Source: a virus
Lineage: Duplodnaviria > Caudoviricetes
Virus record (IMG/VR): IMGVR_UViG_3300020598_000096
Coordinates: 1 to 36,595 of that record
Length of the DNA stretch: 36,595 nucleotides
Reading direction: 5' to 3' (one strand)
Shown here in pieces: positions 796 to 36,595 of the stretch. The notes under the pieces were generated by a model. It was not told where the DNA came from. It ran no database searches and was given only the letters and a program-made list of their open reading frames with translations. Both the position numbers and the translations under genes were made by a program. Every line of letters starts with the position of its first letter. Positions within the stretch are counted from its first letter, which is position 1.

Positions 796-2872
796 AGTAG
801 CACCCCCCATTCTCATATTCGTCACGCTCTTGCATGCTCTTCAAAAGCCGAATTCCTCGTCTCTTCAGATTTAGAAGTCCGTTGATTTGCTCGCCCGTCA
901 GCTTCTCGTGAGCGAGCAAGGCGTCGGCAAGACGGCGGACATCGCTTCGGCGGCGCTCGATGATGGCCGTCGCTTCACGCATGCTGTTCTGCAGCGACTC
1001 TTCGACCTGTTTTCTGATGTCTGGATACAACCGTAGCGCCGTCAAAGCGTTGTCTGGATCAGACAGGTAAGTTAAACTCCCGGACTGACCGGTGCACAAA
1101 TACATCCGCGCTAGCCAGTGCGTTGCCACTCTTAGATCATACGTCCCCGTATCAGAGCGCTCCTCGAAAAAGATGTCTTCTGCTGCCAGACCGCCGATAA
1201 GCTGTTTGACCGAACTCAGAATTTGCGAAGACGTCATGATATGGCGCTCGCTTTCTGAAATGCGAACCGTTACGAAGCCGCCGAATTGACTATCTACTCC
1301 CTCAATGACCTCCCGCTTGACTTCCGCTCTGACCACTTGTTTTCCAAGTTCGAGCGCGACAATCGCGTGTCCAGCTTCGTGAATTGCGGCGCGTTCTAAG
1401 TTCTCAGGCGACATCGCCACGCGCTTCGGAAGAGCATTCAGCAGATCAGCAAGCGTTACCTCTCGCCTTTGCCGACGCGCAGTTCTTCTAGCGTCTCGCA
1501 CGAGGCCTTCGAGCCACGCACCAGCCATGCCCTCGGTGTTCTCGACAACTGGCGACAGGTCAGCACCTTCAAGATCACCTTTTAGATGAAAACGCAGGAT
1601 TCCCTCGCGCGCTGCCGCATCGGGTAGGGGAATTTCCACAAGCTTGTCGAGACGCCCTGGTCGACGTAACGCCGCATCGATTTTGTCAGCATGGTTCGTA
1701 GCGCCAACGACGACGACGCCCTCACGTCCTGCTGCTCCGTCAAGACACTCTAAAAGTCCGTTCACTGCTCGACGGATGTAATCGCTGCCGTCGCTATCGC
1801 TTGAGCTCGAATTCCGGTCGCCCGCTGAATCGAATTCATCAATAAAGAGGATGCAGGGCGCTTGCTTTTGAGCCTCGTCAAAAGATTTTTGCATGGCTTT
1901 CAGATAGTCGCCGAGGTGGCCTTTCGCCTGCCACTGCGCCATCGAAGTAGCTACCAACGCGACGTCGCAAGTGCGAGCTAATGCTGAAGCGAACGTTGTT
2001 TTCCCAGTGCCTGGAGGTCCGTAGAGAAGCACACCACGATCTACATCCGACCATGAAATCCTGCCTGCCTGCCAGTCTTCCAAATCCCGAGCCAGATCGC
2101 GACCCCATTCGCCAGCAGCCCCCAAGCCGTGCAGATCGTCAAGCGTGGGTTCGTCCGTATCTAGTGCAGGCTTGATGTCAGTCCGCTCACCAAACTCTGC
2201 GGCTTCAAGCCATGCGTAGGCCAACTCGAAACTGTGGAGAGGATCTCGACCTTTGGAAAAGATATTCATGAGCTGTTGAATCGGCACAGCCATCAGCTCG
2301 TCGCCGATCTTAGCATCGAGCCAGAAATCAGACTTCACATGCTTCTGGACGGCAGCTTCAAGAGCTGCAGGAGAACATCTGATCTCGATGTCGGCATCTA
2401 CGAAGCGTCCGACTTCAGGCGGAATTTGATGATCTTTCGTGGCAAGAATGAAAACACGGCGGTGCTCAAAAAGGCGCGAAAGGAGAGCTTTCGACGTCTT
2501 TTTGCTGTCGTACGCATACTGCTCAAGGTAGACCAAAATCGACTTCGCTGGATGCGGCCCGCGATATCGCTGGCGCATGCCGTCTGCCAAGACTTCTTCG
2601 ATACCAACGCCAAAGATATCGACTTCATCGGTGCTGGCGCAGCGCAGCACGAGCGTACACGGACACTTTGCATCAAAGAATTTTTCAGCGGCGGCTGGTG
2701 AAGCGGCTTTCAGGCTGTCGACAAAGATCTCGTATAGCAGACCGACCTTGAAGCCGTCGATGATCGGGTCAAAAAGAGAGCTTTCTGACGCTTTCTCATC
2801 TTCGGTGTCGCTGACCCATTCCATATCTCCGAGGTCGATGTCGTTATGGTTGTCTACGGCTTCCTTTGCCAT
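782..2872 (-). CDS. Soluble FtsH-like AAA+ ATPase / M41 zinc metalloprotease
   Basis: Walker A GPPGTGKT, Walker B ILFIDEFD, SRH GATN...ALRRPGRLD, HEAGH zinc motif and GGLAAE; no N-terminal transmembrane segments; AAGGAG RBS. Confidence 0.9.
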   Translation of the reverse strand: MAKEAVDNHNDIDLGDMEWVSDTEDEKASESSLFDPIIDGFKVGLLYEIFVDSLKAASPAAAEKFFDAKCPCTLVLRCASTDEVDIFGVGIEEVLADGMRQRYRGPHPAKSILVYLEQYAYDSKKTSKALLSRLFEHRRVFILATKDHQIPPEVGRFVDADIEIRCSPAALEAAVQKHVKSDFWLDAKIGDELMAVPIQQLMNIFSKGRDPLHSFELAYAWLEAAEFGERTDIKPALDTDEPTLDDLHGLGAAGEWGRDLARDLEDWQAGRISWSDVDRGVLLYGPPGTGKTTFASALARTCDVALVATSMAQWQAKGHLGDYLKAMQKSFDEAQKQAPCILFIDEFDSAGDRNSSSSDSDGSDYIRRAVNGLLECLDGAAGREGVVVVGATNHADKIDAALRRPGRLDKLVEIPLPDAAAREGILRFHLKGDLEGADLSPVVENTEGMAGAWLEGLVRDARRTARRQRREVTLADLLNALPKRVAMSPENLERAAIHEAGHAIVALELGKQVVRAEVKREVIEGVDSQFGGFVTVRISESERHIMTSSQILSSVKQLIGGLAAEDIFFEERSDTGTYDLRVATHWLARMYLCTGQSGSLTYLSDPDNALTALRLYPDIRKQVEESLQNSMREATAIIERRRSDVRRLADALLAHEKLTGEQINGLLNLKRRGIRLLKSMQERDEYENGGCYYEFA

Positions 2873-2964
2873 TTGTGGTTTCTCCTTGAAGTTGGGGCGC
2901 TCGACCTGAATTTTTCAGGGAGCGGGAATGCGCATGCGTAGTCGTGATGTATGTGCGTCCGACG

Positions 2965-3519
2965 TCAGGCCGTGACGTAGGTGGCCAGACCGGGCAGGGC
3001 GGCTTTCAGATGCTGGAAAGTTCGGGGGGTGAATGTGACATCTGGCAGGTCGACACCGACGTCGCGGGACATGCCGACGGAGTCGAGCGTCCCATGGCTA
3101 TGACCATAGAAATGGACGGCACCTTTGTTACTGGTTGGCCATACGCGGTGTGCGTAGTGCGACAGGAAAAGTCTCTCGCCGCCGTCGCTAGTGAGCAGCG
3201 TATGCCGAGGTTCCTGATCCCAGTCTAGCTCAAGTAGATGTGGGAGGGCGTTGCCAGCTCGGTCGACATCATGGTTGCCGAGGACCAAAATCTTGCGGCC
3301 ATTTAGACGTCGGAAAATCTGCTTCGCATGCGCTGCGCCGCCAAATGCGAAATCACCGAGGTGGTGGACGATGTCAGATGGCCTCACGACGCTGTTCCAA
3401 GCGTCTACCATTGCGTCATCCATCTCACTGACGGATGAAAACGGACGTCCACAAAGGCCGATAATGGCTTCATGCCCAAAATGAGTATCTGAGATGTAGA
3501 ATTTTTGCACGTAGGACAT
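2965..3519 (-). CDS. Calcineurin-like metallophosphoesterase (phage type)
   Basis: Motifs ISDTHFGH, LGDF, LGNHD, SHY, GHSHG, DVGVD. Confidence 0.9.
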   Translation of the reverse strand: MSYVQKFYISDTHFGHEAIIGLCGRPFSSVSEMDDAMVDAWNSVVRPSDIVHHLGDFAFGGAAHAKQIFRRLNGRKILVLGNHDVDRAGNALPHLLELDWDQEPRHTLLTSDGGERLFLSHYAHRVWPTSNKGAVHFYGHSHGTLDSVGMSRDVGVDLPDVTFTPRTFQHLKAALPGLATYVTA

Positions 3520-3623
3520 GCTAGGTTCCTTTCGAGTACGGAGATGAATGCAATGAAAACAGGCGATTAGCCTGCTAGATTCATGCAGTCTTACGTATCG
3601 AGTTTAGGAACCTCATGTTTACG
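3510..3623. promoter_or_regulatory. Long imperfect inverted repeat covering the RBS and start of the phosphoesterase gene
   Basis: CGTAGGACATGCTAGGTTCCT (3510-3530) pairs imperfectly with AGGAACCTCATGTTTACG (3606-3623); nested stems TCGA, TACG/CGTA, TGCAATGAA/TTCATGCA, CAGGC/GCCTG. Confidence 0.55.
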
Positions 3624-3724
3624 CCCCGGGATGACACCCATGCCGGAAGTAGTCCGGCACCAATGTCGTGGGGAGGCGTATACTGAGATCTCTTTGCTCT
3701 TTCAAGTGCCTTCAAGTGCCCATT

Positions 3725-4558
3725 CTAGGAAACCGTGTGAGGCACAGTCTCAATATTCGTAAAATCTTTGACCTCCGGTGAGCTAATAACACTCTTGCAA
3801 GTGTCCATCGCGGCTAGCGGATTACCTCGCATCAGCGCAATTGCATACGAGCGCCACCAATTCGGAAATCTTGGGTTCGCCGCGATGACGCTCATCGTCC
3901 GCGAAATCAGGCCGCCCATGGCTTCATCTGCTCGCCCGATTTCGGGCCAGTCAGCGCTTAGGCGGTTGACGAAGTACTCGTTTATCCAAGCGGGATCGGA
4001 GCTCATCATGATGCAATCGAGGCGCTGCTGAAACTTTTCCGCCTGATCTTTGAAGTCAGATGACAACATGAATTGCAGGTGCTCGGGGACGGTCGCTGGA
4101 TCAATAGTCTGAGGACGCGACGTCTCTTTCTTCGATACCGGAAGTCTCGGCTTCCTCTTCGGCTTTATGGTCCTCTTCTTAATCTCTTCGAAGATGTTGA
4201 AATCGTAGAGAATTTTCCAAGCTGCAGGGTCGTTACTATCCTTGGTTGCAATGCGCATCTGGCGGAAGAGGTCGAGAATGAGATCGGGGTCGTTCGGTAC
4301 GAATATCCCGGTGGGCCAGCCGAACGCGTTTTTAGATCGCGACCACAGTACTATCTGCAGAGACTCGCCAGTGGCTTCGGGATGTTGAGATATTACGAAA
4401 TCGATAGCCGATTTGTAGAAGCGCTCGTCACCAGGCATCACGGTGCCGAGCATTTCGAAAACGAGAGCTTTTTCGATGAGGTGCTTCGGATAGCTCTTCC
4501 GCGCAGGAGCTTCAGCTTCCGTGGGATTTATCAAAAACTTGGGTGCTGAAATAGCCAT
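3725..4558 (-). CDS. Hypothetical protein translationally coupled to Rep
   Basis: 277 aa ORF; TAATG stop/start overlap with rep at 4558 and GGAGA RBS. Confidence 0.75.
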   Translation of the reverse strand: MAISAPKFLINPTEAEAPARKSYPKHLIEKALVFEMLGTVMPGDERFYKSAIDFVISQHPEATGESLQIVLWSRSKNAFGWPTGIFVPNDPDLILDLFRQMRIATKDSNDPAAWKILYDFNIFEEIKKRTIKPKRKPRLPVSKKETSRPQTIDPATVPEHLQFMLSSDFKDQAEKFQQRLDCIMMSSDPAWINEYFVNRLSADWPEIGRADEAMGGLISRTMSVIAANPRFPNWWRSYAIALMRGNPLAAMDTCKSVISSPEVKDFTNIETVPHTVS

Positions 4559-6369
4559 TATGAAATCTCCTTATATGTAATGAAATCGGGTTCGCTAATA
4601 TCGTCATCTAATAAGCGGTCGGCGGCAAGCGTATCCGTGATGTAGGCGATGTCTTCAGGGGAGACGTCGCGTTGACCGAATGTGAATTCTTCTACCAGAC
4701 CATCTATCCAGCAGCGGACGGTTAGCTCAATTTTGTGCTCTCCGGTGTAGATAATGTTCTGGATGACTGGGAAAACGCGCTCATCCACCTCTTCGTAGCT
4801 AAGTTCGTGGTCGGCCGTCCAGATAATCTCTCGGATGTTGGATAGATCGGGCATCGCGTCGGTCTCTTCAGGAGCTTCGTCTTCTAGAAGCTCCGTAAGC
4901 AGCTTGGTCGTTATATCATCGATGGCCGGATCGTAGTTTGCTGAAGTTTCTGGCTCAAGTTCGGGCGTCGGCTCGGAAGGCTGCGTGGGTTCAGCGCGTT
5001 CGAACTTTTGATCTTCTTCAGCTAGTAGCTCTTCGAAAAGCTGCATTCCGACGCTTGACGTCGTACCTTCATCCTCATTAGAGGTCGGGACGGTGGATGC
5101 AACTTCCGTTTTTGAAAGGTCCTGTCCGCGAGCCTGGCTACTGAGCTTTTCCTTCTTTGGCGGCTTGGGAACGATGCGCTTTTTACGCGCTTCTGATGCG
5201 ATTGCGGCTTCTTCCCAGAATAAGCTCTTGACTTCATTCGACAAGAGATCAGGAGCCTGCACTTCCTCGGCACAAAACTGGAAAGCCGCTTCGTCAGGTC
5301 CGTACAGCTTGATAACGTTCAGAAGTCTTTTGCCGCGATAGTATCGGATGTCGTATTCTGGAGTAATTGGATCGGCGTCGAGCGCTTCTTTCAGAGCTAT
5401 CTGCCAAGCTCCAAAATACGAAATGTTCATATCTTGGCTGAATCCGCTGAAAGCGCGCTGTACACGCTGCCAAACGTAACTGTTGACGCGAAATTCTGGC
5501 GCATCCACGCCGCCGACACCTAACAACCTGTGAGTGCGTTTGTTAAACGATACGCGTGTGAGATGATGGCTAGGCGCGCGCAGGATTACATGGAAATCCA
5601 CGCGTTCAAGCGGGCGTCCACGCGCTTCCTTTCTGATTTCTTCTACGCTGATATTGAAGCGGCGGACGGTCGCCAGTTCGTAGACGAGTTTGTTCAGAAC
5701 CCGCTGGCGGAATTTCCCGAAGTTCATCTTCCCGGTGTCGAGCGGGAAGCCCGTCCACCGATAGAGGTCCTCAAGAGACGCCGATACGACAACCTTGTTC
5801 TCTCCGTCAGGTGTCCACTTCTGGCGCGCAGCCGCAGCTGCAAAAATCCGGTACAGCCGCACAGAGTACTTGGATTTCATCTGCGACAGGGGGGCGAGTT
5901 CAAGATACGCATAAGCTGGCATCGAACGCATCAGAATGCGGATCGGCTCGGGGAGCGAGTAGCGGATGACGTCTTCGCTCTCGTTTGTTTCCAGGTAGCT
6001 AAATATAAGAGGGACATCTTCAAAACGGCGGCTCTTCTTGGTGCCGTAGCTGACGGTCGTAGCCATCAGGCGTCTCATAGAGACTTTCAAGGCGTCTCTT
6101 CGTGCATGAGTACCCAGGAACTTCAGAGCGGTCGCGACTGGTAGAGACGTGAATTCGGCCGTCATGCCTTTGTCCGCTTCGTACGCAGCGGATACGAGCA
6201 GTTCATGCAGCGCGGCATCGTCTGCCGTAAGGATGTCTGACGAGGTGATTTCCACGCTGTCGAGCATCTCCAAGGGTCGGGGACTCTCGGGTGCAATTTT
6301 TGAAAGCTGGCTTTCCGTAATCGCTTTCGTAATGGATCCGCGTGTGGCGGGCTGAATGAGTTTTTTCAT
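4558..6369 (-). CDS. Plasmid replication initiator (Rep_3 family) with long acidic C-terminal extension
   Basis: Rep_3-like motifs YLELAPLSQMKSKYSVRLY, NFGKFRQRVL, GRPLERVDF in the first ~265 aa; repeat array immediately upstream. Confidence 0.85.
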   Translation of the reverse strand: MKKLIQPATRGSITKAITESQLSKIAPESPRPLEMLDSVEITSSDILTADDAALHELLVSAAYEADKGMTAEFTSLPVATALKFLGTHARRDALKVSMRRLMATTVSYGTKKSRRFEDVPLIFSYLETNESEDVIRYSLPEPIRILMRSMPAYAYLELAPLSQMKSKYSVRLYRIFAAAAARQKWTPDGENKVVVSASLEDLYRWTGFPLDTGKMNFGKFRQRVLNKLVYELATVRRFNISVEEIRKEARGRPLERVDFHVILRAPSHHLTRVSFNKRTHRLLGVGGVDAPEFRVNSYVWQRVQRAFSGFSQDMNISYFGAWQIALKEALDADPITPEYDIRYYRGKRLLNVIKLYGPDEAAFQFCAEEVQAPDLLSNEVKSLFWEEAAIASEARKKRIVPKPPKKEKLSSQARGQDLSKTEVASTVPTSNEDEGTTSSVGMQLFEELLAEEDQKFERAEPTQPSEPTPELEPETSANYDPAIDDITTKLLTELLEDEAPEETDAMPDLSNIREIIWTADHELSYEEVDERVFPVIQNIIYTGEHKIELTVRCWIDGLVEEFTFGQRDVSPEDIAYITDTLAADRLLDDDISEPDFITYKEIS

Positions 6370-6427: not shown

Positions 6428-6613
6428 TGTTTAGATGACGCCGTTCCAGAACGTGTCATTTGGACAGATGGGTGTTTAGATGACACGGATGGGAAGTGTG
6501 TCATTTAGAGGCGAGGGTGTTTATATGACGTCGTCGTAGACTGCGTCATATAGACGTTCAGATGACACGATTTCGGGGTATGTCATGTAAATCGGTTTTG
6601 GGATTTGTGTCAT
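6428..6613. repeat. Iteron array / putative oriV: four ATGAC-N15-GTCAT palindromes plus a half-site
   Basis: ATGAC at 6435, 6480, 6525, 6562; GTCAT at 6455, 6500, 6545, 6582 (spacer always 15 nt); lone GTCAT at 6609. Confidence 0.85.
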
Positions 6614-7642
6614 AAAAACAATGTTGACGAGCCTAGGCTGTGCAACGGTTTGCAGCGGTTTTCCCCGAGCGGGATTTTGACGATTCTAAATAGAAGATTT
6701 TGGCGGTCGATTTTCTTTCCTTTGGTTTAGACCAGCCGTGCCTGCTCCGCAGGGGGTGCTCCGCACTAGGACTGGGTCGAGCAGAGTGATGAGCCGTGGC
6801 GGATTTGATGAGCGTTGCACGGCTCACGCGATTGTCGGTCAGTCCGTTGGTCTCGTAGAGGTCCTTCCAATTATCTCGTAGAGACGGTGGTTTGGGATTT
6901 GTGTCATAAAAACAAAGTGGACGGGATTGGATGAAACAACGGTTTGCGGAGGTTTCCCGCAGGTCGCATTTTCCCGATTCTAAATAGACTAGTTTGAGGT
7001 CGAATTTTTCGGATTATTGATTCAATTTTTACCGTGCTGCTTCGCAGTGGAAGGGACTGGTCGAGTATAGTTCTGGAGCGTAGTGCGTTTCGCACGGTGG
7101 ATCAGTAGACACTGCCATGTACCAAACAGTGCACTTCGTGAGAGGCGCACAGGAGCAGCAGTTTAACGGGCGCGTTTCAAGGTGGTGGCACTGGAGTAAG
7201 GCCGGAGGGATGAAAGGCCTTAAACCGCACGGCAAATGCTCGGAATAGCTAAAAGCGGATCAGTGCTGGTGATGAGCCGTTGCACGGATGGTGTCGTTGT
7301 ACGTCTCGCAGGACGTTGCGAGAGGTCCTTCCAATTATCTCGTAGAGACGGGGGGTTGGGATTTGTGTCATAAAAACAAAGTTTACGAGCCAAGGCTGTG
7401 TAACGGTTTGGGACGGTTTTCCGCGAGCGGGTTTTTCCCGATTCTAAATAGACAAGATCGAAGTCGGTTTTGTTGGATTATCGATTCAGTTTTTGCCGTG
7501 CCGCTTCGCGGGGAAAGGACTTGGTCGTGTTTGGGTCTGGAGCGTAGTGCGTGTGATTAGCGACGCAGTGCCGTCGGCGGATTTGATCTGCCTTTTGTCA
7601 CTTGCAAGCTCCAACGGCACTCTTCTCGTATCTCGTAGAGAC
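6597..7642. repeat. Three long degenerate direct repeats with conserved boxes
   Basis: GGGATTTGTGTCATAAAAACAA near 6600, 6894, 7358; AACGGTTTG at 6644, 6938, 7402; CGATTCTAAATAGA at 6681, 6975, 7439; TATCTCGTAGAGAC at 6872, 7336, 7629. Confidence 0.9.
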
Positions 7643-10419: not shown

Positions 10420-10462
10420 CAGGGCTAGCGTACCCTCTCTTTGTTCCTAATGGCATTCACCC

Positions 10463-11413: not shown

Positions 11414-11440
11414 AGAAGCCGTCACCAGTGTTACAACCCG

Positions 11441-12724: not shown

Positions 12725-12729
12725 TCAGC

Positions 12730-14841: not shown

Positions 14842-14861
14842 GTTTGATTTGGAGATTTTGG

Positions 14862-15104: not shown

Positions 15105-15105
15105 T

Positions 15106-27362: not shown

Positions 27363-27363
27363 T

Positions 27364-27906: not shown

Positions 27907-29741
27907 TGCTTTATCTCTCTTGGGTTCCAGTATGGAACACACCTTTCGATCCTGACGCCCACGCTCGCGAAGACGAATTCTGCATCCGTGGCAGCATTTA
28001 CGAGCAAGAAGAGGGCGATATCATTGTTTCCGGCTTCGAAGTCGAGATTCCGAACCCCGGATTAGGCCTTTTGAGCGTAGGTCGAGCGGAAAGGTATGCT
28101 GTCCTATCAGAGAGGCTGGCTTCCGATAACATCGCTGTCGAACTCGCTCGCGGACGTGTAATTGCAGTGCCATCAGAGCTGGGCCAACAAACTTTGGTCT
28201 TACGATTTCAGTGTGTGCCGCCAGACGAGGACGAGGTGCTGAAGGCGGCAGCTGACGCCCTGCGTACGGGGGAGGTCGATGACTATGACCCCAACGGTTC
28301 TGCAGAAGATCGAGACGCAGCTGAAAGCTATGACGCCCTTTTTCATAGCCGCGACGCCAGCGATGATCCGATGTCAGCACTGGCTGGACGTCTAGAACTC
28401 TGGAGATGGAACAGGAAGACGCTGGCTATCGAACGGACGTCTATGATCCACGGCGACGCGGTTCACGATGTCCATCACAACGGCTTCGAAGACACGCTTT
28501 CGGTATCTCTTCGGAATCCTCCTCGGAAAACGACGCGCATGCGTGTTGTGGCGTCGTGGACTCAGGAGGCGAAGGGCGTCCAGACGTATCCTGCCGTTGA
28601 TCACAACGTCCAGACTTTTAGCTGGCAGGATCTTATCCAGAGCCTTCCGCAGCCTGGTACTCCCGTGGGAGAAAACACGGGCTGGCATGTAGCTGAAGCT
28701 GGAATCACGAATTTCACACCTGGGGAATTTCTCGATACCTTCGACGTCGACCCAGCGAAATATGCGCTGAACGATGACAAAGTCGCGACTTGTCAGCTTC
28801 TTTTGCAGCCTGCTCGCGTGGGGGTGCAGATCAGGTTGGGCTACGATTTCGAACAGCAGCGCGAGGAACACCTTACGATCCATATGCCAGTCGCCCAGCA
28901 AGATGTGTTGGGCGACGACAAGGTCGAAACAGTTGACGTCATCCATCTCGCGCCACTGAATATCGACCCGGCGACCCGCATTTGGGACATGTTCGATCCG
29001 GTAACGGGGGATATGGCTTCATACGAAGTTGGCGATGAGCGGATTTACAACGGCAAAAAATACCGCTGCGTGGTCGCTCACACGGCGATGCCTTTCATAC
29101 CTGCTTTCTGGCAGCAAGTGCCTCGTAAAGCCGCAATCGATCCGGCTGCAGCAAGATATTTCGACACAGACCGAGGCATCCGAAGCACCAGGTACGCAAT
29201 TAGGATGCTGCAGCGTCGGGTCTATGTCCGCGCTCGTTGTCTAGAAATCAGCTTTCAATGCGACTGGCAGACCGCTCGCGAGATGTCGTGCCGGGATGCA
29301 TGCCGTATAGAGAACAGGAAGTTGGGTGAAGTGACAGCCAAGATTTCGTCCATCAAATTGGTTGCGGATGGCGCGAAAAGGTTCGCTGAGATCACGCTTC
29401 TTGCTTGTCTCGGTGACAGTTCCGAGCCACCAGTCGCTGACAACGGCACCGAGGAAATGACGTCGGACGTCGTTTACACCATGACGTCGACGTCACCATC
29501 GACGCCCACTGTGGCAAGTCAGCTCGCTACCAGAGCGCACTGGGTAGACGTTTTCAACGATTATTCAGATCAATGGATGGCAGCGGCGGGTGAGCCTGAT
29601 CCCGTTGAGATCATCGAAAATATGCCGACCAGAGTGGAGATTTACGTCAATTCCATTCGGGAAGAAGACCTTCTGACGCGACAACTGACGGCGACTTGTG
29701 AACCGATTTGGCTTCCCCGAAATGCACTTATCGGAAGCTAG
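27906..29741 (+). CDS. Tail tip / hub protein with an internal CBM5/12-like module
   Basis: 611 aa; SYEVGDERIYNGKKYRCVVAHT...PAFWQQV resembles chitin-binding type 3 modules. Confidence 0.65.
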   Translation: MLYLSWVPVWNTPFDPDAHAREDEFCIRGSIYEQEEGDIIVSGFEVEIPNPGLGLLSVGRAERYAVLSERLASDNIAVELARGRVIAVPSELGQQTLVLRFQCVPPDEDEVLKAAADALRTGEVDDYDPNGSAEDRDAAESYDALFHSRDASDDPMSALAGRLELWRWNRKTLAIERTSMIHGDAVHDVHHNGFEDTLSVSLRNPPRKTTRMRVVASWTQEAKGVQTYPAVDHNVQTFSWQDLIQSLPQPGTPVGENTGWHVAEAGITNFTPGEFLDTFDVDPAKYALNDDKVATCQLLLQPARVGVQIRLGYDFEQQREEHLTIHMPVAQQDVLGDDKVETVDVIHLAPLNIDPATRIWDMFDPVTGDMASYEVGDERIYNGKKYRCVVAHTAMPFIPAFWQQVPRKAAIDPAAARYFDTDRGIRSTRYAIRMLQRRVYVRARCLEISFQCDWQTAREMSCRDACRIENRKLGEVTAKISSIKLVADGAKRFAEITLLACLGDSSEPPVADNGTEEMTSDVVYTMTSTSPSTPTVASQLATRAHWVDVFNDYSDQWMAAAGEPDPVEIIENMPTRVEIYVNSIREEDLLTRQLTATCEPIWLPRNALIGS

Positions 29742-29758
29742 AAAGCATGAGGTGATAT

Positions 29759-29986
29759 ATGGAAAGAGAAAATTCTAGCGAGATTTTGGCCGTTCTGCAG
29801 GCCGTCAAATCCCAGGCGCAGGAGCAAGCACGCAAAGATCGGATGTCGCAGCCTAATACGTCGTCAGTCCGCGATGCCTCGGCGCGACGTCGCGATAGCG
29901 CATCGACTGTATTGATGATGGGGTCGGTGCAGCGTTGCGACGTCAGTTCCGCAATTGTAGCCACGAATGTCGTTCGCTCGGCTTGA
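29759..29986 (+). CDS. Hypothetical protein
   Basis: 75 aa; GAGGTG RBS; continues the tail operon. Confidence 0.55.
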   Translation: MERENSSEILAVLQAVKSQAQEQARKDRMSQPNTSSVRDASARRRDSASTVLMMGSVQRCDVSSAIVATNVVRSA

Positions 29987-30055
29987 TTTAGGTGGAATCT
30001 TGCACTGGCTACCGGGATCGTGAAGACAACGAAATTTCTTCACGAGACCATTTTC

Positions 30056-30307
30056 ATGACGTCAGATTTTCCCTCGAAAGAGCTATTAGAAGTGATCCGT
30101 TCGCAAGCCCGGATGGAAGAGAAGCTGGATGCATTCCTTAGGAATTCGGCTTCGATGCAGTCCAAGCTATCGGCGATTGAAAAGGACGTCGCCGAGCTGA
30201 AAGCCAAGAGGCGTGAAGATCGCGCCTACATCGCCGCTCTGTCGGCGGTTTTCTCACTGGTTTTTGCATTCTTTTCGCCGATCCTGAGAAAATTCTTGGG
30301 TTTTTAA
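30056..30307 (+). CDS. Small coiled-coil protein with C-terminal transmembrane helix (XhlA/holin-like)
   Basis: ARMEEKLD...LSAIEKDVAEL, then YIAALSAVFSLVFAFF; alternative GTG start at 30020. Confidence 0.65.
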   Translation: MTSDFPSKELLEVIRSQARMEEKLDAFLRNSASMQSKLSAIEKDVAELKAKRREDRAYIAALSAVFSLVFAFFSPILRKFLGF

Positions 30308-30450
30308 ACGCGTGTTTTAGTCAGGCGGGACGTATCCTTGTCAACTTTCTATCTTATAACTATTTGAATTTATTATAGGAATCACTTGTTTGCGGTTGCC
30401 TGCCCGCTGATAGTGATCTTGTCAGTCTAGAAAAAGGAAAGGATGACAAG

Positions 30451-32229
30451 ATGACTATAAGTAAAAACCTCAAAGAGCATATCGAAAGAGAACTCCGGAG
30501 CCAGATCGACTTAGAAGAATATATCGACCATCTGACCACTGTCGAAGCGATGGCCATCGCTCTTTTTGCAGCTGGCAATTCTATCCGAAAAACTGCTGAA
30601 GCCCTTGGAATCACATACTACGCCGCTCGCAAAATCTGGCTGTCGATCAGAGGGCCAGACGACCCCAACTCCGCTGCTAAAGCTGTCGAAAAGCTCTGGC
30701 CTGCGTCCGAGCCAGAAGCCGCCAACGATGACCACGACATTACTCCAAAGCGGAAAGCACCGCGGATCTCTGAGATTCCCACTATCGAAGCTGGTCTGGA
30801 GCGCGGCGTCGTTCATCGCTTTCTGATCTCGTCAGCTCAGGACGACACGCCCGTGCACGCCGACCTCTTGGAAAACATGGAGGCGTACGCCGCTTACATC
30901 GGTGCTCACATCATCATCGGCGGCCACACATATCAGCTCGGGCTTTTCGATGATCATGCTGCCGACGCCAACATTTATGATGAGCGTATCGTGCCATACC
31001 TCTGTCACGAGCGGGTCGAGCTAACGTCTGACCTGCTCTACATCGGCAGCGCAAACATTCTCCCGACGACTGCCAATCCCCTCAACGGATGGGCTACCCA
31101 GAACCGTGGCAATCACGTCATTATCCCGCATTCGCGCATAGCGCTTCAGTCGATACCAAGGCTGCAGGGTCAGGACCCGAGATTTGCGGTGTCGACTGGC
31201 ACCGTAACCATCCCAAATTACACGGCACGCGCGGCTGGGCAGAAATCGATTTTTCACCACACATATGGCTTCTTGGTTGTCGAAATCGACACCGACGGTG
31301 AGGTCTTCCTCCGCCCAGTTTCAGCGTCTGACGACGGCAGTTTTCAGGATTTGAACACCGTTGTGATGGACGGCATTTGCCATAGCGATCAGCGCGTTCG
31401 CGCCATCAGTTGGGGCGACATCCACCATGAACAGCTCGACGCCACTATCGCTGCCGCAAGCTTTGGATACGACCGTGAGACGAAGTTGAGGCTGGACAAC
31501 ATCAACATTCTCGACGGCCTGCAGCCGGAGGTCCAGTTCTTTCACGACACGCTTGATTTCCGACGTCGCAACCACCACAATTTGGCAGACCCGCATGTGA
31601 TGGCGTCGGTGAATGCTACGAGTTCCGCAAACGTCGAATCCGAGGTGCAGGAAGCTACGGATTTCATCAGCGCATGCACCCGTGAGTGGTGTACGACCGT
31701 TGTCGTTGAGTCCAATCACGACAATGCTTTGGCGAAATGGCTCAAGAACGCTGATGGAGCTGCGGACGTCGAAAACGCCTACTACTGGCATGAACTCAAC
31801 GCGAGTTGGCACATGTCGATCCGTAGTGGAAACAGCAGTTTCAACATTGTGGAGTGGGCGATGAGACGCGCGGACCTGCCAGATAGCGTCGAGTTTGTCG
31901 GAGCGGGCGAGGGGTATCAAGTCGATGGCGTCGAATGCGGCCTACATGGCGATCTCGGGATCTCTGGAAGCCGTGGCTCTCCGACCCAGTTCAAACGGTT
32001 CGGCGTCAAGACGTCTACTGGCCACACTCATACGCCGTCGATCTCAGAAGGTGCGTATGTAGCGGGCGTCTCAGCGAAACTGGATCAGGGCTACAACAAA
32101 GGTCCTACGACATGGGCGCACGCGCACATCGTCCAGTATCACAATGGAAAGAGGACCATCCTCCTGATGTCTTCGGACGGGCGCTGCCAGGCGATGGGAG
32201 ATCGTGTTGCCTTGGAAATGGCTGCCTAA
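30451..32229 (+). CDS. T5 A1-like metallophosphoesterase-fold nuclease with N-terminal HTH
   Basis: Colinear motifs recalled from T5 A1: RFLISSAQ, NILPT, STGTVT..NY...AGQK, WGDIH, DF..RNHH, VESNHD, ECGLHG..G..GSRG, TGHTHT, AGVS..LD.GYN; N-terminal SIRKTAEALGIT. Confidence 0.8.
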   Translation: MTISKNLKEHIERELRSQIDLEEYIDHLTTVEAMAIALFAAGNSIRKTAEALGITYYAARKIWLSIRGPDDPNSAAKAVEKLWPASEPEAANDDHDITPKRKAPRISEIPTIEAGLERGVVHRFLISSAQDDTPVHADLLENMEAYAAYIGAHIIIGGHTYQLGLFDDHAADANIYDERIVPYLCHERVELTSDLLYIGSANILPTTANPLNGWATQNRGNHVIIPHSRIALQSIPRLQGQDPRFAVSTGTVTIPNYTARAAGQKSIFHHTYGFLVVEIDTDGEVFLRPVSASDDGSFQDLNTVVMDGICHSDQRVRAISWGDIHHEQLDATIAAASFGYDRETKLRLDNINILDGLQPEVQFFHDTLDFRRRNHHNLADPHVMASVNATSSANVESEVQEATDFISACTREWCTTVVVESNHDNALAKWLKNADGAADVENAYYWHELNASWHMSIRSGNSSFNIVEWAMRRADLPDSVEFVGAGEGYQVDGVECGLHGDLGISGSRGSPTQFKRFGVKTSTGHTHTPSISEGAYVAGVSAKLDQGYNKGPTTWAHAHIVQYHNGKRTILLMSSDGRCQAMGDRVALEMAA

Positions 32230-32254: not shown

Positions 32255-32764
32255 ATGAAATACCAGCCGCTACCATCCGCTACGAACGCCGAAACCGATG
32301 TCGTATTTACACCTGAAGCATGGGCAAAAACGATTGTTCGACTACTGCCGTTATACGGCCGCGTGCTCGACCCGTGCCGAGGTCAGGGAGCCTTCTATAA
32401 CCTCTTCCCAGACGACTGTGAGAAGCTCTGGTGCGAGATCTCTGAAGGAAAGGACTTTTTCGAATTCAACGCGAAAGTTGACTGGATCGTGTCGAATCCG
32501 CCGTGGTCGAAGATCAAAGAATTCCTAGGTCACTCGTTCAAAATCGCCGACAACGTCGTTTTCCTTATCACGACGAACCACGCTTACACGAAGGCTCGGG
32601 TGCGTTTAGCTCAAGAAGCGGGCTTCAAAATGCGGGGAATTCTGCATCTTCCTACCCCTCCCAAGCCGTGGCCTCAGAGCGGCTTTCAGCTCTCCGCGAT
32701 CTGGTGGCAGAGAGGGTATCTTGGTCAGCCGGAAGTGCTGCACGCAGTGGACCAGCTAGCTTAA
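32255..32764 (+). CDS. Minimal amino-DNA methyltransferase (m6A/m4C, gamma-like motif order)
   Basis: DVVFTP (motif X), VLDPCRGQGAF (motif I), IVSNPPW (motif IV); 169 aa; GAGGAGG RBS. Confidence 0.85.
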   Translation: MKYQPLPSATNAETDVVFTPEAWAKTIVRLLPLYGRVLDPCRGQGAFYNLFPDDCEKLWCEISEGKDFFEFNAKVDWIVSNPPWSKIKEFLGHSFKIADNVVFLITTNHAYTKARVRLAQEAGFKMRGILHLPTPPKPWPQSGFQLSAIWWQRGYLGQPEVLHAVDQLA

Positions 32765-33210
32765 TTCCTGATGCAGACGTCAGATGCCGAGACACGGTCG
32801 AAGAGGTCGTCTTCTCGGTCAACGTAAGGGCTTTCCCAGACATGATCTCTGAAAATCAACTGGGAGGGATCAGGAGTATACGCAACGTAGAATTCGTGAT
32901 CCCTCAGCCGTTCTGCGTTTTGCGTGCCAGCTCGATAGAACCACACCTCGGCCTGTGCAGAGCCGTTTTCTGAGACTGCTTCTTGCAACAGGTATTTCGC
33001 TGCCGAGGCGAATTGTTCGACGTCGCTGAAGTCAGATATCGCTCTGATCTCGGTGAGATAGACCCTATCAACATTGTGGTCATCATCGAGCTTGATCTGC
33101 TCGGACGTCTGGACGTCAACAATGATGCAGTTGGCTTCGTCGGCAAATCCGACGTCCGCATAACCAAACGTGATGAATGCGCATAGCGCAGCGCAAGTCA
33201 GCTTTTTCAT
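32761..33210 (-). CDS. Exported acidic hypothetical protein (moron)
   Basis: Signal peptide MKKLTCAALCAFITFGYADVGFA; Cys near each end of the mature chain; GGGGG RBS. Confidence 0.75.
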   Translation of the reverse strand: MKKLTCAALCAFITFGYADVGFADEANCIIVDVQTSEQIKLDDDHNVDRVYLTEIRAISDFSDVEQFASAAKYLLQEAVSENGSAQAEVWFYRAGTQNAERLRDHEFYVAYTPDPSQLIFRDHVWESPYVDREDDLFDRVSASDVCIRN

Positions 33211-33277
33211 AGTCCGCCCCCCGGCTTAGTTACCCTCGAACAGTGCAGACTAAGCCGTTGAAGCTTGCAAGTTAATA

Positions 33278-33292
33278 GAACAAAATAAGAAC
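33278..33292 (+). promoter_or_regulatory. Alphaproteobacterial LexA (SOS) box at the lysis cassette promoter
   Basis: Perfect GAAC-AAAATAA-GAAC, downstream of TTGCAA (33265-33270) and 20 nt before the endolysin ATG. Confidence 0.8.
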
Positions 33293-33312
33293 ATTGGTTC
33301 AGAGTTCATTTA

Positions 33313-33744
33313 ATGCGCAAGATTCATACACTCGTAGTCCATTGCACAGCGACGCCCGAGGGCCGTGACGTCACTGTTGATACAATCCGCACTTGGCACG
33401 TCCGCGACAACGGCTGGCGGGACATCGGTTATCACTATGTCATCTACCGGGACGGCTCGATCCACACTGGACGTCCAGTCAGCCAAATTGGCTCTCATGT
33501 CGCTGGCAAGAATACAGGGTCGATTGGCATCACGTATGTTGGCGGCGTCGACCGCGACATGAAGCCCAAGGACACCCGGACGCCCGAACAGAAAGTGGCT
33601 CTCCGCAAGTTACTGGCTGACCTGTCGCAACAGTTTCCAATCACCCAGATCGTTGGCCACAACGACTTCGACAAGCGCAAGGCGTGTCCGTCATTCGATG
33701 CGAAATCCGAGTATGCGGACATCTTGAAGGAAGGGTCACGATAA
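33313..33744 (+). CDS. Endolysin, N-acetylmuramoyl-L-alanine amidase (T7 lysozyme-like)
   Basis: VVHCTAT, GWRDIGYHYVI, GSHVAG, VGHND, KACPSF. Confidence 0.95.
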   Translation: MRKIHTLVVHCTATPEGRDVTVDTIRTWHVRDNGWRDIGYHYVIYRDGSIHTGRPVSQIGSHVAGKNTGSIGITYVGGVDRDMKPKDTRTPEQKVALRKLLADLSQQFPITQIVGHNDFDKRKACPSFDAKSEYADILKEGSR

Positions 33745-34001
33745 TGGCTCGCCCGACATACCCCTCTTCATATCGCTGTTTTTCATATCGAGTTCTCATC
33801 GACGACCTATCTGAATCGCTTGAGAAACACATCAAAGCCAACAACCTGACCGCTGCGCAAATCAGCAAATACTACCCATCGGTGCGCGACGCCCACATCC
33901 GCAAAATCCGCTGCGGGAACGGCCACGAACTCGGCATCAAAATGCTTTTCTCGATTGCTGAAGCCAGCGGTCTCAAGGCTAAGGTGGAGTTCGCGGCATG
34001 A
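33744..34001 (+). CDS. Small XRE-like HTH protein inside the lysis cassette
   Basis: TAATG overlap with endolysin and ATGA overlap with holin; NNLTAAQIS...HIRKIRCG...LGIKMLFSIAEASG. Confidence 0.65.
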   Translation: MARPTYPSSYRCFSYRVLIDDLSESLEKHIKANNLTAAQISKYYPSVRDAHIRKIRCGNGHELGIKMLFSIAEASGLKAKVEFAA

Positions 34002-34294
34002 GCAATCAGCAACAGGAAATCACCCGAAAATTCTCGAAGACGATCACCCTGAACTCACTAAAAACCTTCTTCGCTGCAGCGTTCCTTGGCTTACTGTGGG
34101 ATGGCGAACACACCGCCGAAATCCTGCAGGCGCTGGGCACATGGGTTGTCGCCATGCTCGCCATCTACATGAGCATCGGCTACCTCGATTTCAGAACCGC
34201 GAAGGGAATGCCAGGGTTCATCGACAACCTCCTGGGCCTTGTTTTCACTGGCCGACGTCGCAATAGGAAGACCGAAGGGGAGGGGGAGGAGTGA
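33998..34294 (+). CDS. Holin (putative)
   Basis: Two hydrophobic segments and a charged C-terminus; between endolysin and spanins. Confidence 0.7.
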   Translation: MSNQQQEITRKFSKTITLNSLKTFFAAAFLGLLWDGEHTAEILQALGTWVVAMLAIYMSIGYLDFRTAKGMPGFIDNLLGLVFTGRRRNRKTEGEGEE

Positions 34295-34668
34295 TGTCCA
34301 TTTTCTCAAATTTTCGCCTCCTGATCACTATCACAGCGGGCGTCGCTTTAGCTTCTGGCTGGCTCTATATCGGTATCTTGAAGTCTCAGTTGGAGACGAA
34401 GGACGTCGAGCTAGCGAACACCAGGGCAGCTCTCCAGTCAGCCATCGCGACCGCGAATTCTAACGCCGATGCCCTTCGGGAGGTCGACGCCGAACACAAG
34501 CGGACGCTCATGTTGCTGAACAAAGTGACGTCCGATTTGCAGAAGGCGAGCACCCAGAATCGTAAACTCGAACGAGAGATCACATCAGGTGACGTCGGGG
34601 CAGATGGCGACGTCGCGCCAGTGCTCGAAAATCTGCGCATGCGCAAATTCTCGGGAGGCGTCAGATGA
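34294..34668 (+). CDS. Inner-membrane spanin (Rz-like)
   Basis: N-terminal transmembrane helix, coiled coil, DGDVAPVL tail. Confidence 0.8.
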   Translation: MSIFSNFRLLITITAGVALASGWLYIGILKSQLETKDVELANTRAALQSAIATANSNADALREVDAEHKRTLMLLNKVTSDLQKASTQNRKLEREITSGDVGADGDVAPVLENLRMRKFSGGVR

Positions 34669-34928
34669 TCAGGCTGGTCGGTACCATGGTCGCATGCCTC
34701 CTGCTGTCTGGATGCCTGGTGAAGCGGGACCCTGACGTCATAACCAAGGTTGAGACACGACAGCTGCAGATACCGGAGCAGCTTCTGACATGCATGCCTG
34801 AGCCAGAAGCGCGGGAAGTCTGGAAAACGCAGAAGGACGTCGCGCTTTATCTGGTGCGGATTTCTGAGGCGGGGGATGATTGCAGGCAGAAGCTGGATGG
34901 AGTTCGGCGTCTGGTGGGTGGGCAATAA
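34665..34928 (+). CDS. Outer-membrane spanin lipoprotein (Rz1-like)
   Basis: Lipobox LLSGC; IPEQLLTCMPEP and DCRQKL. Confidence 0.85.
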   Translation: MIRLVGTMVACLLLSGCLVKRDPDVITKVETRQLQIPEQLLTCMPEPEAREVWKTQKDVALYLVRISEAGDDCRQKLDGVRRLVGGQ

Positions 34929-34977
34929 AAAGGAGCGGAATAACCGTATTCGGTCGTTGCCATACTTTTAAAGTCGC

Positions 34978-35010
34978 AAAAAAGGCCTCGGTTCTCCGGA
35001 GGCCTTTTTT
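34978..35010. terminator. Bidirectional intrinsic terminator
   Basis: AAAAAAGGCCTC...GAGGCCTTTTTT between convergent genes. Confidence 0.9.
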
Positions 35011-35070
35011 CTGATTTAATTTCAATGGATTGGGCTACGTCATTCTGAGTAGCTCTAGCTTATTTTTTCG

Positions 35071-35499
35071 TCACGCTGCTTCCGCAACTGAAAAATGCCC
35101 AAGGTGGTGCTTTACGGCTTTCCGATACTGCTCTTCTGAGAGAGTGACATAAATTTCTCCGCGCTTGCTATCACCGGGATACATTGATGTCCGTTCCACA
35201 CTCATGACTCTCCAGCCCTCTTTGTAGCGCTTCATCGTCATCTTGGTCGTTGCGACGCCATAGCTATAACCCTTGTCCGGTGCGAAACCGTAGAAAGTAG
35301 CTGTAGCACCTGGTCGAAATGTTGAGGCGATTCCTGCCTTCACAAGCTGCTGCTCGGCGTCCTTGGCAAAACCTACGGCTTCGCTGGCTGTCAAGATGAA
35401 ACGGCTTGCGCGACCGTTCACAGCGTCCAGAGCTTCTTCGAGCTTTTCAGTTTCGCTAATCTTGATACCAAATTTAGAAATTTCATAAGACATTTTCAT
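35071..35499 (-). CDS. Hypothetical protein
   Basis: 142 aa ORF with GAAGGA RBS, ending near the bidirectional terminator. Confidence 0.75.
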   Translation of the reverse strand: MKMSYEISKFGIKISETEKLEEALDAVNGRASRFILTASEAVGFAKDAEQQLVKAGIASTFRPGATATFYGFAPDKGYSYGVATTKMTMKRYKEGWRVMSVERTSMYPGDSKRGEIYVTLSEEQYRKAVKHHLGHFSVAEAA

Positions 35500-35717
35500 T
35501 TTCCTTCATAGACGGGGATTGAGTGAGGGTTTGTTTGTCCGTCTATATATAGGATTGTCTGAATATACCGTCGGCGCAATAACTATTTTTGCTGATTAGC
35601 ATAAAGAGTGGACGGATGTAGACTGTATGAATGCTATTTATTTGGAAAAATGTTGGAGATACAAAGGAAGTTTATCTGTCAACGGCCGACAGAATCTAAA
35701 TCTGCCGACGGAAAAGC

Positions 35718-35739
35718 AAAAGGCCCCGTAACCGAGGCC
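35718..35739 (-). terminator. Probable terminator after the 35768 gene
   Basis: Minus strand reads GGCCTCGGTTACGGGGCCTTTT. Confidence 0.6.
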
Positions 35740-35767
35740 CTCGACAGCGCATTCCCATCTGCAGATT

Positions 35768-36064
35768 TCATGGGAAATCAAAATCAGGCGCGTAAGAATG
35801 GATGTACTCGTCCAGTTGCTCAAGTGCTCGCTCAGGGTTTCGTAAGTGGCTGTAGAAAGCCTGCGCATCGTCGCCGCGACGGGCTATATCGATGCATTCA
35901 GGACCATCCATCTTGTCACTGCGAAATCGCATTCTGATGCGATCACCATCTTCGAAGATGATGTACTTCGTGCAGCCCAGTTCTCGGCGTCCGTTCTCAT
36001 TCAGGATCACTGCAGCGCGGTTGTTGTCGATGTCGTGAACGGTGTTCTCAATCAAATTTGGCAT
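35768..36064 (-). CDS. Hypothetical acidic protein
   Basis: GGAAGGA RBS before ATG 36064; followed by a terminator. Confidence 0.65.
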   Translation of the reverse strand: MPNLIENTVHDIDNNRAAVILNENGRRELGCTKYIIFEDGDRIRMRFRSDKMDGPECIDIARRGDDAQAFYSHLRNPERALEQLDEYIHSYAPDFDFP

Positions 36065-36220
36065 TTTTATTCCTTCCATTTTTTTGCGTGCTATTCATTA
36101 GCCTCTGATATCATTATATTATTTCATGTTTCTGGGCGCAAATTGGCTACCTAAATGTGTTGACCAGCATCGGTTAGGTCTGGAATCCCGACCGCGCCGA
36201 CGGCCGAAATCGGCGCTCAG

Positions 36221-36595
36221 TTAAGCGCCGACGAGATTTTCTAGGTTCAATACCCAAGCTTCTTCCGGCTGGATGCCCCACGCCGTTTGGAAGCCGATCC
36301 GGCCGACGTCGTATTCAGCCAACCCAGTGGCCTCTACAAGCTGCTCTTGGCTGGCATGGCGAGCCGCGCGGAACCAGCGGACTACCAGGTCTTCCTCAGG
36401 CGTCAGTTGGCTCGACGTCCGATTGTGCGGAGCAGCTCTGATTTCTTCACCAGCAAGCGCATGCCTGTAGACCGCACGGATGCGAGATTTCGTGACTAGA
36501 TTGCCGACCGTCCAGCTGTCCTGTTCATCATTGAAAGGTAGACGTCGGAAATCGGGATCGCTCGCGATGTAGAGAGCGGCTTCCTGCCGGAGCAT
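36221..36595 (-). CDS. Hypothetical protein with possible C-terminal HTH; may be 5'-truncated by the window edge
   Basis: SQEQLVEATGLAEYDVGRI; the ORF begins at the last base of the window. Confidence 0.55.
   Translation of the reverse strand: MLRQEAALYIASDPDFRRLPFNDEQDSWTVGNLVTKSRIRAVYRHALAGEEIRAAPHNRTSSQLTPEEDLVVRWFRAARHASQEQLVEATGLAEYDVGRIGFQTAWGIQPEEAWVLNLENLVGA

What the first reader, a model, noticed from the sequence alone, without database searches (positions are those of the whole stretch)
1230..36546. Element-wide highly iterated palindrome GACGTC (HIP1-like signature)
Seen: my manual tally gives about 96 GACGTC sites, one per ~380 bp, including four within 29459-29494 and two at 33104/33112. 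If GC is about 55% (estimated), independent-base expectation is 10-11, so the excess is about 9-fold. Sites fall in all three codon phases (GAC GTC, xxG ACG TCx, xGA CGT C), so Asp-Val codon usage alone does not explain it. I found none in 1-1200, 6600-8270, 10900-12400, 16500-17950, the capsid gene or 34850-36300, most of which are moron or non-coding segments. Established: cyanobacterial HIP1 is a hyper-abundant palindrome associated with DNA methyltransferases, whereas phages usually avoid palindromes. Inference: this lineage creates or selects GACGTC as a dense self mark or protein-binding site, perhaps tied to the methyltransferase and A1-like nuclease at 30451-32764.
Basis: partly seen in the sequence, partly recalled or inferred. 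Interest (0 to 1): 0.82.

Follow-up and report, generated by a model that had tools for sequence, protein, structure and literature searches.

The report
Phage clade saturated with GACGTC palindrome
One branch of temperate phages, probably of Ochrobactrum soil bacteria, carries the six-letter palindrome GACGTC three to five times more often than its proteins and codons allow and about ten times more densely than Ochrobactrum chromosomes, likely as a landing site for a still unidentified DNA-binding protein rather than as the target of the methyltransferase gene found in this genome.

Summary
Confirmed: exactly 96 GACGTC sites. In genes there are 92 against 26 under protein- and codon-preserving shuffles (z 14), and 91 against 32 when junction trinucleotides are also kept. 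The window is a lambda-type temperate phage whose relatives are Ochrobactrum prophages. Host-genus chromosomes hold 0.12-0.51 sites/kb against 2.6/kb here.

Strong enrichment (3.2-4.6x) marks one clade: window, L045, G005 and the G135 prophage. Only 15 of 69 positions are shared with G005, so the force is ongoing. It acts on DNA: all three codon phases, both strands, intergenic DNA, and an excess of Asp-Val and Thr-Ser dipeptides.

The methyltransferase link fails. Three enriched relatives lack the gene, a carrier of a 75% identical copy is not enriched, and it is an amino-methyltransferase. Other A1-encoding phages show no such word. The VSP-repair prediction also fails, since GATGTC is raised, not depleted.

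Best reading: a selected 6-bp landing site for a clade-encoded dimeric DNA-binding protein, reader unidentified. Biased repair remains a real rival. Precedent: GGATCC in B3 mycobacteriophages.

The parts
1230..36546 (.). Field of 96 GACGTC palindromes (2.6/kb), plus 76 GACGCC/GGCGTC near-cognate sites
24296..30450 (+). Tail module, 28 sites (4.6/kb), including the four-site cluster at 29459-29494
   Evidence: gene names from PHROGs
32765..34928 (.). Lysis region and a long-resident small gene, 14 sites (6.5/kb)
32255..32764 (+). 169-aa amino-methyltransferase (NPPW motif, phrog_799), a moron with 0 sites; absent from the three other enriched clade members
   Evidence: a related contig in run X6 skips 32204-32767
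30451..32229 (+). T5 A1-like protein (phrog_1745), core gene of the whole family, enriched or not
36221..36595 (-). C-terminal part of a ~201-aa HTH protein (gene cut by the window end; whole in L045). Candidate reader, untested
   Evidence: (weak HTH hits)
4558..6369 (-). Rep3-family replication initiator; argued against as reader
6430..6615 (.). Iteron-like inverted repeats upstream of rep (ATGAC...GTCAT half-sites); one happens to contain the GACGTC at 6527
9796..12088 (-). Moron block not found in relatives, 2 sites (0.9/kb)
16645..17887 (-). Moron block not found in relatives, 0 sites
34929..36220 (-). Variable small-gene block, 0 sites
12089..20490 (+). Lambda-type packaging and head genes (terminase gpA, portal, protease, decoration, gpE capsid), which place the element

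Best explanation
GACGTC is a DNA-level word that one clade of these temperate phages keeps at three to five times the level its proteins and codons allow, likely because a dimeric DNA-binding protein encoded by the clade binds it and many weak, interchangeable sites are likely favoured by selection as a coat or self mark on the phage chromosome. Shown: the excess, its restriction to the clade, its absence from hosts, site turnover, strand symmetry, intergenic presence, protein distortion and the sharp 6-bp width. Inferred: selection rather than repair bias; a protein reader with half-site preference GAC > GGC/GAT (outer G strict, central pyrimidine-purine step tolerant); and a role in silencing or marking the prophage. 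The most likely reader among genes seen is the repressor-like HTH protein whose end lies at 36221-36595; this is untested.
For: Excess survives protein-, codon- and junction-preserving nulls. It is equal on both strands for the asymmetric variant: GACGCC 36/15 and GGCGTC 33/16 on the coding strand. Intergenic DNA of the four clade members holds 9 vs 2.2. Asp-Val is 77 vs 47 and Thr-Ser 65 vs 42, while host DNA gives 74 vs 72 and 46 vs 50. Many sites align to different amino acids in relatives, so they arose by several kinds of change. All three outer-base variants, transversions included, are drained alike: 49/85, 42/77, 33/52. Window-L045 conservation is 18 of 28 vs 10.1 expected, p 0.002. 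The four enriched genomes group together with support 1.0 in two unrooted trees, although third codon positions between window and G005 are only 43% identical and 15 of 69 sites are shared. Genes without homologues in relatives are site-poor. The HTH helix reads RQSWYQH in the five weakly enriched genomes and differs in the three clade copies seen.
Against: No reader was identified: folds and searches of two candidate proteins gave nothing. Conservation is not clearly above a matched control of C-ending codon pairs (9 of 12 vs 19 of 30) and ranks only 94 of 787 words between G005 and G135; biased repair also protects sites. No flank information survives codon control except weak dips at +2 T and +4 G, whereas HTH repressor dimers usually read longer, spaced half-sites (established knowledge). 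The helix difference coincides with the clade split, so it is not independent evidence, and the three clade helices differ from each other. The window lacks its integrase end and right end, and its actual host is not known.
Confidence: 0.42

Rival explanations
1. Biased repair or gene conversion (Elhai-type): an enzyme acting on phage DNA resolves mismatches in favour of the strand that reads GACGTC, or less strongly GACGCC, so sites accumulate without being useful. Leakage at a methylated third C would give the GRTGYC excess.
For: Outer-base variants are drained. All four C3-to-T products of GRCGYC rank 1, 2, 3 and 10 of 256 NN-TG-NN words in the clade, against 66-126 in host DNA. Site conservation is modest. 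Intergenic DNA is enriched by a similar factor.
Against: No C5 methyltransferase (PF00145) was found in 5 of 5 phage records searched (61-86% complete for the three closest) or in the G135 host genome, whose prophage is 3.2x enriched; the family is patchy in the genus, 33 of 43 genomes. A host enzyme should also reshape the host chromosome, which is flat. Vsr-type repair predicts depletion of T variants; GATGTC is raised and GACGTT is drained no more than transversion variants in the pooled clade, though more so in G005 alone (8/28).
Confidence: 0.24
2. The reader is a host protein (nucleoid protein, regulator or defence sensor) that this phage clade exploits or titrates by carrying many copies of its site.
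For: No gene is shared by the four enriched genomes and missing from the weakly enriched ones among the genes that could be compared. The weakly enriched relatives still show 1.5-2.4x.
Against: Hosts are flat or slightly depleted (14/20). More distant A1-carrying relatives favour a different word, GATATC at 2.1-2.5x, which host samples do not favour; a drifting word fits a phage-borne reader better.
Confidence: 0.13
3. The word is the self mark that spares phage DNA from the A1-like nuclease while host DNA is degraded.
For: T5 A1 is essential and sufficient for host DNA digestion and how T5 DNA escapes is stated to be unknown (bioRxiv 10.64898/2026.04.02.716235). A1 is the gene common to the relatives with GACGTC or GATATC excess, and A1-carrying G010 has its own iterated word. 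A1 sits beside methyltransferase genes in phiCbK and XM05 too.
Against: Most of those relatives were found through A1, so the association is ascertained. Weakly enriched relatives keep A1 at 77-78% identity. None of 8 other A1 phages sampled, including a T5-like one, has a comparable palindrome. Spacing is random (CV 1.06) with gaps up to 1.75 kb, poor for a protective mark.
Confidence: 0.11
4. The 169-aa methyltransferase at 32255-32764 modifies GACGTC and drives or exploits the excess.
For: It is present, intact and has the NPPW motif; its specificity is unknown.
Against: Absent from L045, G005 and the G135 prophage, all enriched; present at 75% identity in G008, not enriched; its own gene has 0 sites (one Asp-Val, written GATGTC).
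Confidence: 0.05
5. Codon or amino-acid composition artefact.
For: GAC and GTC are the preferred codons and the order-4 Markov model expects 83.
Against: Protein- and codon-preserving nulls leave z 14; all phases, both strands and intergenic DNA are affected; among 77 viral loci picked for three close GACGTC none of 10 kb or more exceeds 2.1x.
Confidence: 0.02

Closest known systems
GGATCC/GATC over-representation in subcluster B3 mycobacteriophages (PMC4841201; section 13 and passages read)
   Same: A 6-bp palindrome raised about fourfold genome-wide in one phage subcluster and not in its sister groups; cause unexplained.
   Different: Different word and host phylum. That study used base-composition controls only; here codon controls, host chromosomes, site turnover and gene tracking were tested.
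HIP1 (GCGATCGC) and alternate HIPs of cyanobacteria (PMC4390886, abstract and passages; PMC5861425, abstract only)
   Same: Dispersed short palindrome in all reading frames, DNA-level, with the same selection-versus-repair question.
   Different: HIP1 is a chromosome-wide host feature, 15-300-fold, with cognate methyltransferases. This word is phage-only, 3-5-fold after codon control, and no cognate methyltransferase tracks it. In the GrCGyC case described by Elhai, GGCGCC is high and GACGTC low; here it is the reverse.
Stoperators of cluster A mycobacteriophages (recalled, not from a call)
   Same: Many dispersed intragenic copies of a word read by a phage-encoded protein; the functional model used here.
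   Different: Stoperators are longer, asymmetric and oriented; this word is a 6-bp palindrome with no flank consensus, and no reader is shown.
Met box AGACGTCT of the ribbon-helix-helix repressor MetJ (PMC3413123, passage read)
   Same: Contains GACGTC; shows that a small dimeric protein can read this core at its dyad.
   Different: Only 3 of 96 sites are AGACGTCT and one pair is 8 bp apart; no ribbon-helix-helix protein was identified in the phage.

Membership tests
HIP1 / alternate HIPs | Short palindrome over-represented throughout the replicon, independent of reading frame | tested here: met
   92 vs 26, three phases, intergenic 9 vs 2.2; the fold is lower than the 15-300 reported for HIP1
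HIP1 / alternate HIPs | Cognate methyltransferase present wherever the word is high | tested here: not met
   Window's enzyme does not track the word; no PF00145 in 5 phage records or the G135 genome
HIP1 / alternate HIPs | Feature of the cellular chromosome | tested here: not met
   44 genus genomes 0.12-0.51/kb, 91 family genomes at most 0.85/kb, sampled stretches near expectation
HIP1 / alternate HIPs | Sites conserved beyond neutral expectation | tested here: inconclusive
   18 of 28 vs 10.1 (p 0.002) but 9 of 12 vs 19 of 30 against matched codon pairs; rank 94 of 787, 1 of 654 and 223 of 407 in other pairs
HIP1 / alternate HIPs | 10-90 kb periodicity | not testable with these tools
   The element is about 40 kb; local spacing is Poisson-like with no 10.5-bp phasing
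Dcm/Vsr-type repair signature | Depletion of the single C-to-T variant of the methylated site | tested here: not met
   GATGTC 151/108 raised; GACGTT 49/85 drained like the transversion variants 42/77 and 33/52
Stoperator system | Longer asymmetric word in one orientation relative to transcription (recalled) | tested here: not met
   Perfect 6-bp palindrome, no flank motif after codon control, no gapped GAC-N-GTC partner
Stoperator system | Word bound by the phage immunity repressor | not testable with these tools
   Needs binding assays; candidate HTH gene only
Met box (MetJ) | Tandem 8-bp AGACGTCT boxes in promoters | tested here: not met
   3 of 96 full boxes, 1 pair 8 bp apart, 2 intergenic sites
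Chi / DNA uptake sequences | Non-palindromic word enriched in the host chromosome (recalled) | tested here: not met
   Palindromic and not host-enriched
Rep iterons | Word bound by the initiator, co-varying with it | tested here: not met
   Iteron type shared by window, G135, G001 and G006 (high and low) but different in highly enriched G005

The most novel reading that the evidence does not exclude
A family of Rhizobiales temperate phages runs its own genome-marking system without methylation: a phage-encoded reader whose word drifts between lineages (GACGTC here, GATATC in distant relatives, AAGGAYTC in another A1 phage) lets the phage tell its DNA from the host's, possibly to steer or survive its own A1-type nuclease. 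That would supply a small, testable model for both the function of highly iterated palindromes and the open question of how A1 phages spare their own DNA.
Probability: 0.15. Interest if true: 0.85.

Novelty: new variant of a known kind. Interest (0 to 1): 0.6.

Why it matters
Phages in this group purge many palindromes (CGATCG, CTCGAG, GCCGGC and CACGTG are all at zero in the window) yet pile up this one, even changing amino acids to do so. Highly iterated palindromes have lacked a function for decades, partly because thousands of chromosomal copies cannot be removed. Here about a hundred copies sit on a 40-kb element with close relatives that differ two- to five-fold in density, and one clade member lies in a genome of a sequenced species representative.

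Tried and rejected
Order-4 Markov control: circular for a hexamer this abundant; replaced by codon nulls and a core-conditional test. Longer or gapped motif: the apparent GACGTCGC and +5 T preferences vanish under protein-preserving shuffles; GAC-N(1-10)-GTC is not raised. Helical phasing: none at 10.5 bp; period 10 gave p 0.027, one of 8 periods tried. Methyltransferase, A1, Rep, Met box and Vsr links: see rivals and membership tests. Search for unrelated elements with the same word: 80 of 121 returned loci were fetched, 77 of them were at least 5 kb and were scored, from 3 of 64 parts of the viral collection; none of 10 kb or more passed 2.1x and none was a relative. Candidate readers: the 277-aa gene beside rep gave a poor model (pLDDT 41) and no Atlas hit. 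A conserved 222-aa protein seen only in relatives folded moderately (pLDDT 73, beta-rich N-terminus) but had no Pfam, PDB-sequence or Foldseek match; my impression that it is AbrB-like is recalled and unconfirmed, and the wider structure search was not obtained. The HTH protein has 10 relatives at 50% clustering and only weak HTH hits. Runs X5 and X6 hold small shares and were not used for habitat. G137, the genus outlier at 0.51/kb, could not be assessed because the stretches fetched were too short. The 4 kb of the parent contig left of the window could not be read, so the integrase end is unseen. The CCGAGG excess in weakly enriched relatives showed no extended consensus.
Full report
OBSERVATION. 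The tally is exact. Expected counts are 10.1, 13.4 and 22.2 under order-0, -1 and -2 models. The order-4 model expects 82.8, but it is trained on pentamers that consist mostly of the motif itself. A non-circular test asks whether G before and C after an ACGT core are coupled: the odds ratio is 5.0 (p 6e-6) in the window and 0.64 in 100 kb of host DNA. With every protein and the codon pool fixed, 41 genes hold 92 sites against 26.3 (z 14.4, the top hexamer). A model that also fits junction trinucleotides gives 91 against 32. The defensible excess is therefore about threefold. At the same time CGATCG, CTCGAG, GCCGGC and CACGTG are absent and GAGCTC and GGCGCC occur twice each, so this element avoids many palindromes and favours this one.

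WHAT THE ELEMENT IS. PHROGs and Pfam give a lambda-type head and packaging module, a siphovirus tail, amidase and spanin genes, a Rep3 initiator, an FtsH-like ATPase, a phosphoesterase, a T5 A1-like gene and a small amino-methyltransferase. The closest named relative is a prophage in Ochrobactrum chromiisoli (terminase 82%); other near terminases are labelled Ochrobactrum or Brucella (formerly Ochrobactrum) species. Relatives have an integrase-like gene at the left end and tRNA-Val(TAC) at the right. The window lacks both ends. Its host is inferred from these relatives, not shown.

NOT A HOST TRAIT. O. chromiisoli has 834 sites in 4.7 Mb. All 44 genus genomes lie at 0.12-0.27/kb except one at 0.51, and 91 family genomes reach at most 0.85/kb, against 2.62/kb here. 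Codon-controlled samples of seven other family genomes (20-40 kb each) and two host-genus genomes are near or below expectation.

A CLADE TRAIT WITH TURNOVER. Observed/expected under codon shuffles: window 91/26, L045 23/5, G005 63/16, G135 prophage 42/13. The remaining close relatives are weaker: G006 23/11, G001 prophage 23/12, G002 20/10, G003 19/8, G004 16/11, L051 5/2. The four strong ones group with support 1.0 in two unrooted trees (L045 could be placed only in the first). Third codon positions of window and G005 are 43% identical and 15 of 69 aligned sites are shared, so the density is kept while positions change. More distant A1-carrying relatives favour GATATC instead (G007 52/25, G008 27/12, L073 17/8) and G009 has both words (65/37 and 32/13). 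As a background check, 77 viral loci selected for three nearby GACGTC gave no locus of 10 kb or more above 2.1x (only 3 of 64 parts of the collection were scanned).

THE FORCE ACTS ON DNA AND BENDS PROTEINS. Sites occur in phases 53/13/26; 53 of 77 Asp-Val pairs are written GACGTC; Asp-Val is 77 vs 47 expected and Thr-Ser 65 vs 42, while host DNA is flat. The asymmetric neighbour is raised equally on both strands (GACGCC 36/15, GGCGTC 33/16), which argues against an RNA signal. Intergenic DNA of the clade holds 9 against 2.2. Blocks without homologues in relatives are poor in sites, as expected for recent arrivals. The word is six bases wide: apparent flank preferences disappear under protein-preserving shuffles, apart from weak symmetric dips at +2 and +4. 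Spacing is Poisson-like (CV 1.06) without helical phase.

NEIGHBOUR PROFILE. In the pooled clade the three outer-base variants are drained alike (49/85, 42/77, 33/52), GACGCC/GGCGTC is raised (153/89), GATGTC/GACATC is raised (151/108) and GGCGCC is nearly absent (2/30). The four third-position T variants of GRCGYC rank 1, 2, 3 and 10 of 256 comparable words in the clade, 1, 4, 5 and 20 in three weak relatives, and 66-126 in host DNA. These genomes are related, so the pooled counts are not independent. Two readings fit: a reader strict at the outer G and tolerant at the central step, or deamination of a methylated third C. The second needs a C5 methyltransferase. None was found in five phage records or in the G135 genome, and the family is patchy in the genus (33 of 43). 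Classical very-short-patch repair predicts loss of the T variant, which is not seen.

THE PROPOSED GENE LINKS. The methyltransferase is a moron: L045 runs from A1 directly into the next shared gene, G005 and G135 have other genes in that slot, G008 carries a 75% identical copy with 15/14 sites, and a contig in run X6 skips it. Its NPPW motif makes it an N6-adenine or N4-cytosine enzyme (established knowledge), so it cannot explain a 5mC signature either. A1 is present in strong and weak relatives alike, and 36-40 kb samples of eight other A1 phages show no comparable palindrome; their best hexamers reach z 4-10 against 13 here. A 2026 preprint states that T5 A1 suffices for host DNA digestion and that the protection of T5 DNA is unexplained (abstract and passages read), which keeps a self-mark role conceivable but unsupported. 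Rep is argued against because its iterons are shared by strong and weak genomes and differ in G005.

MECHANISM. I commit to a selected landing site for a clade-encoded dimeric DNA-binding protein (0.42). Many weak, replaceable sites would let the protein coat or mark the phage chromosome, most plausibly to keep the prophage quiet, in the manner recalled for stoperators. The best candidate seen is the roughly 201-aa HTH protein cut by the window end. Its putative recognition helix is constant in the five weak genomes and differs in the three clade copies seen, but this follows the tree and proves nothing, and HTH dimers usually read longer sites. Evidence for selection is mixed: 18 of 28 sites are kept between window and L045 against 10.1 expected, yet matched C-ending codon pairs are kept almost as well, and ranks in other pairs range from 1 of 654 to 223 of 407. 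Biased repair or conversion is therefore a live rival (0.24), followed by a host reader (0.13), an A1 self mark (0.11), the adjacent methyltransferase (0.05) and a codon artefact (0.02).

COMPARISON AND NOVELTY. It works like a highly iterated palindrome but fails two defining HIP features tested here (cognate methyltransferase, host chromosome), so I do not file it as a HIP1-family member. The nearest published case is the fourfold GGATCC excess of B3 mycobacteriophages, also unexplained (PMC4841201, section read). Searches for GACGTC with phage and overrepresented, for highly iterated palindromes with phage, for GRCGYC, for GACGTC methylomes and for Ochrobactrum prophages listed no report of this word in these phages. 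The library omits most subscription papers, I saw the Ochrobactrum phage survey PMC5492332 only as a listing, and I opened no supplements. Earlier notes of this scan describe similar phage-wide words (AGTACT, GTTTAAAC); they are unchecked leads and show that the phenomenon recurs. Verdict: real, a new variant of a known but unexplained kind, reader unknown; interest 0.6.

Noticed in passing
G010:C1:1-60000 (loci L080-L082): A 65-kb direct-terminal-repeat phage found through its A1-like gene carries a dispersed non-palindromic word AAGGAYTC: 38 AAGGATTC vs 2.7 expected and 23 AAGGACTC vs 2.6, on both strands. It contains the GANTC that is otherwise depleted in these phages.
   Followed up: partly
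G007, G008, G009, L073: Distant relatives have GATATC at 2.1-2.5x under codon control, while sampled family chromosomes are at or below expectation.
   Followed up: partly
window 6430-7700: Putative origin: inverted-repeat iterons upstream of rep, three ~97-nt direct repeats at 6598, 6892 and 7356, a 151-nt duplication, and TATCTCGTAGAGAC repeats. A Rep3 initiator in an integrating lambda-type phage.
   Followed up: partly
window 30451-32229: A T5 A1-like gene sits in the late operon just before the lysis genes of a temperate phage; A1 genes of phiCbK and XM05 also neighbour methyltransferase genes.
   Followed up: partly
G006, G001 prophage, G003: CCGAGG/ACCTCGG is 2-3x raised in the weakly enriched relatives (37/11, 27/10, 20/10), without an extended consensus.
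   Followed up: partly
window 19064-20490 versus G001 and G005: The decoration and capsid genes come in two types: 82-87% identical in some relatives, 35% in G001 and G005, regardless of GACGTC level.
   Followed up: no
window 782-3519: FtsH-like AAA ATPase with a peptidase M41 domain and a calcineurin-like phosphoesterase are core early genes in all near-complete relatives.
   Followed up: no
G137: One genome of the host genus has 0.51 GACGTC/kb, twice any other of the 44; the stretches fetched were too short to test.
   Followed up: no
G006 10888-12153 and G002, G004: A 421-aa gene whose start resembles Y-family DNA polymerases (recalled motif) occurs as a moron in three weakly enriched relatives.
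   Followed up: no
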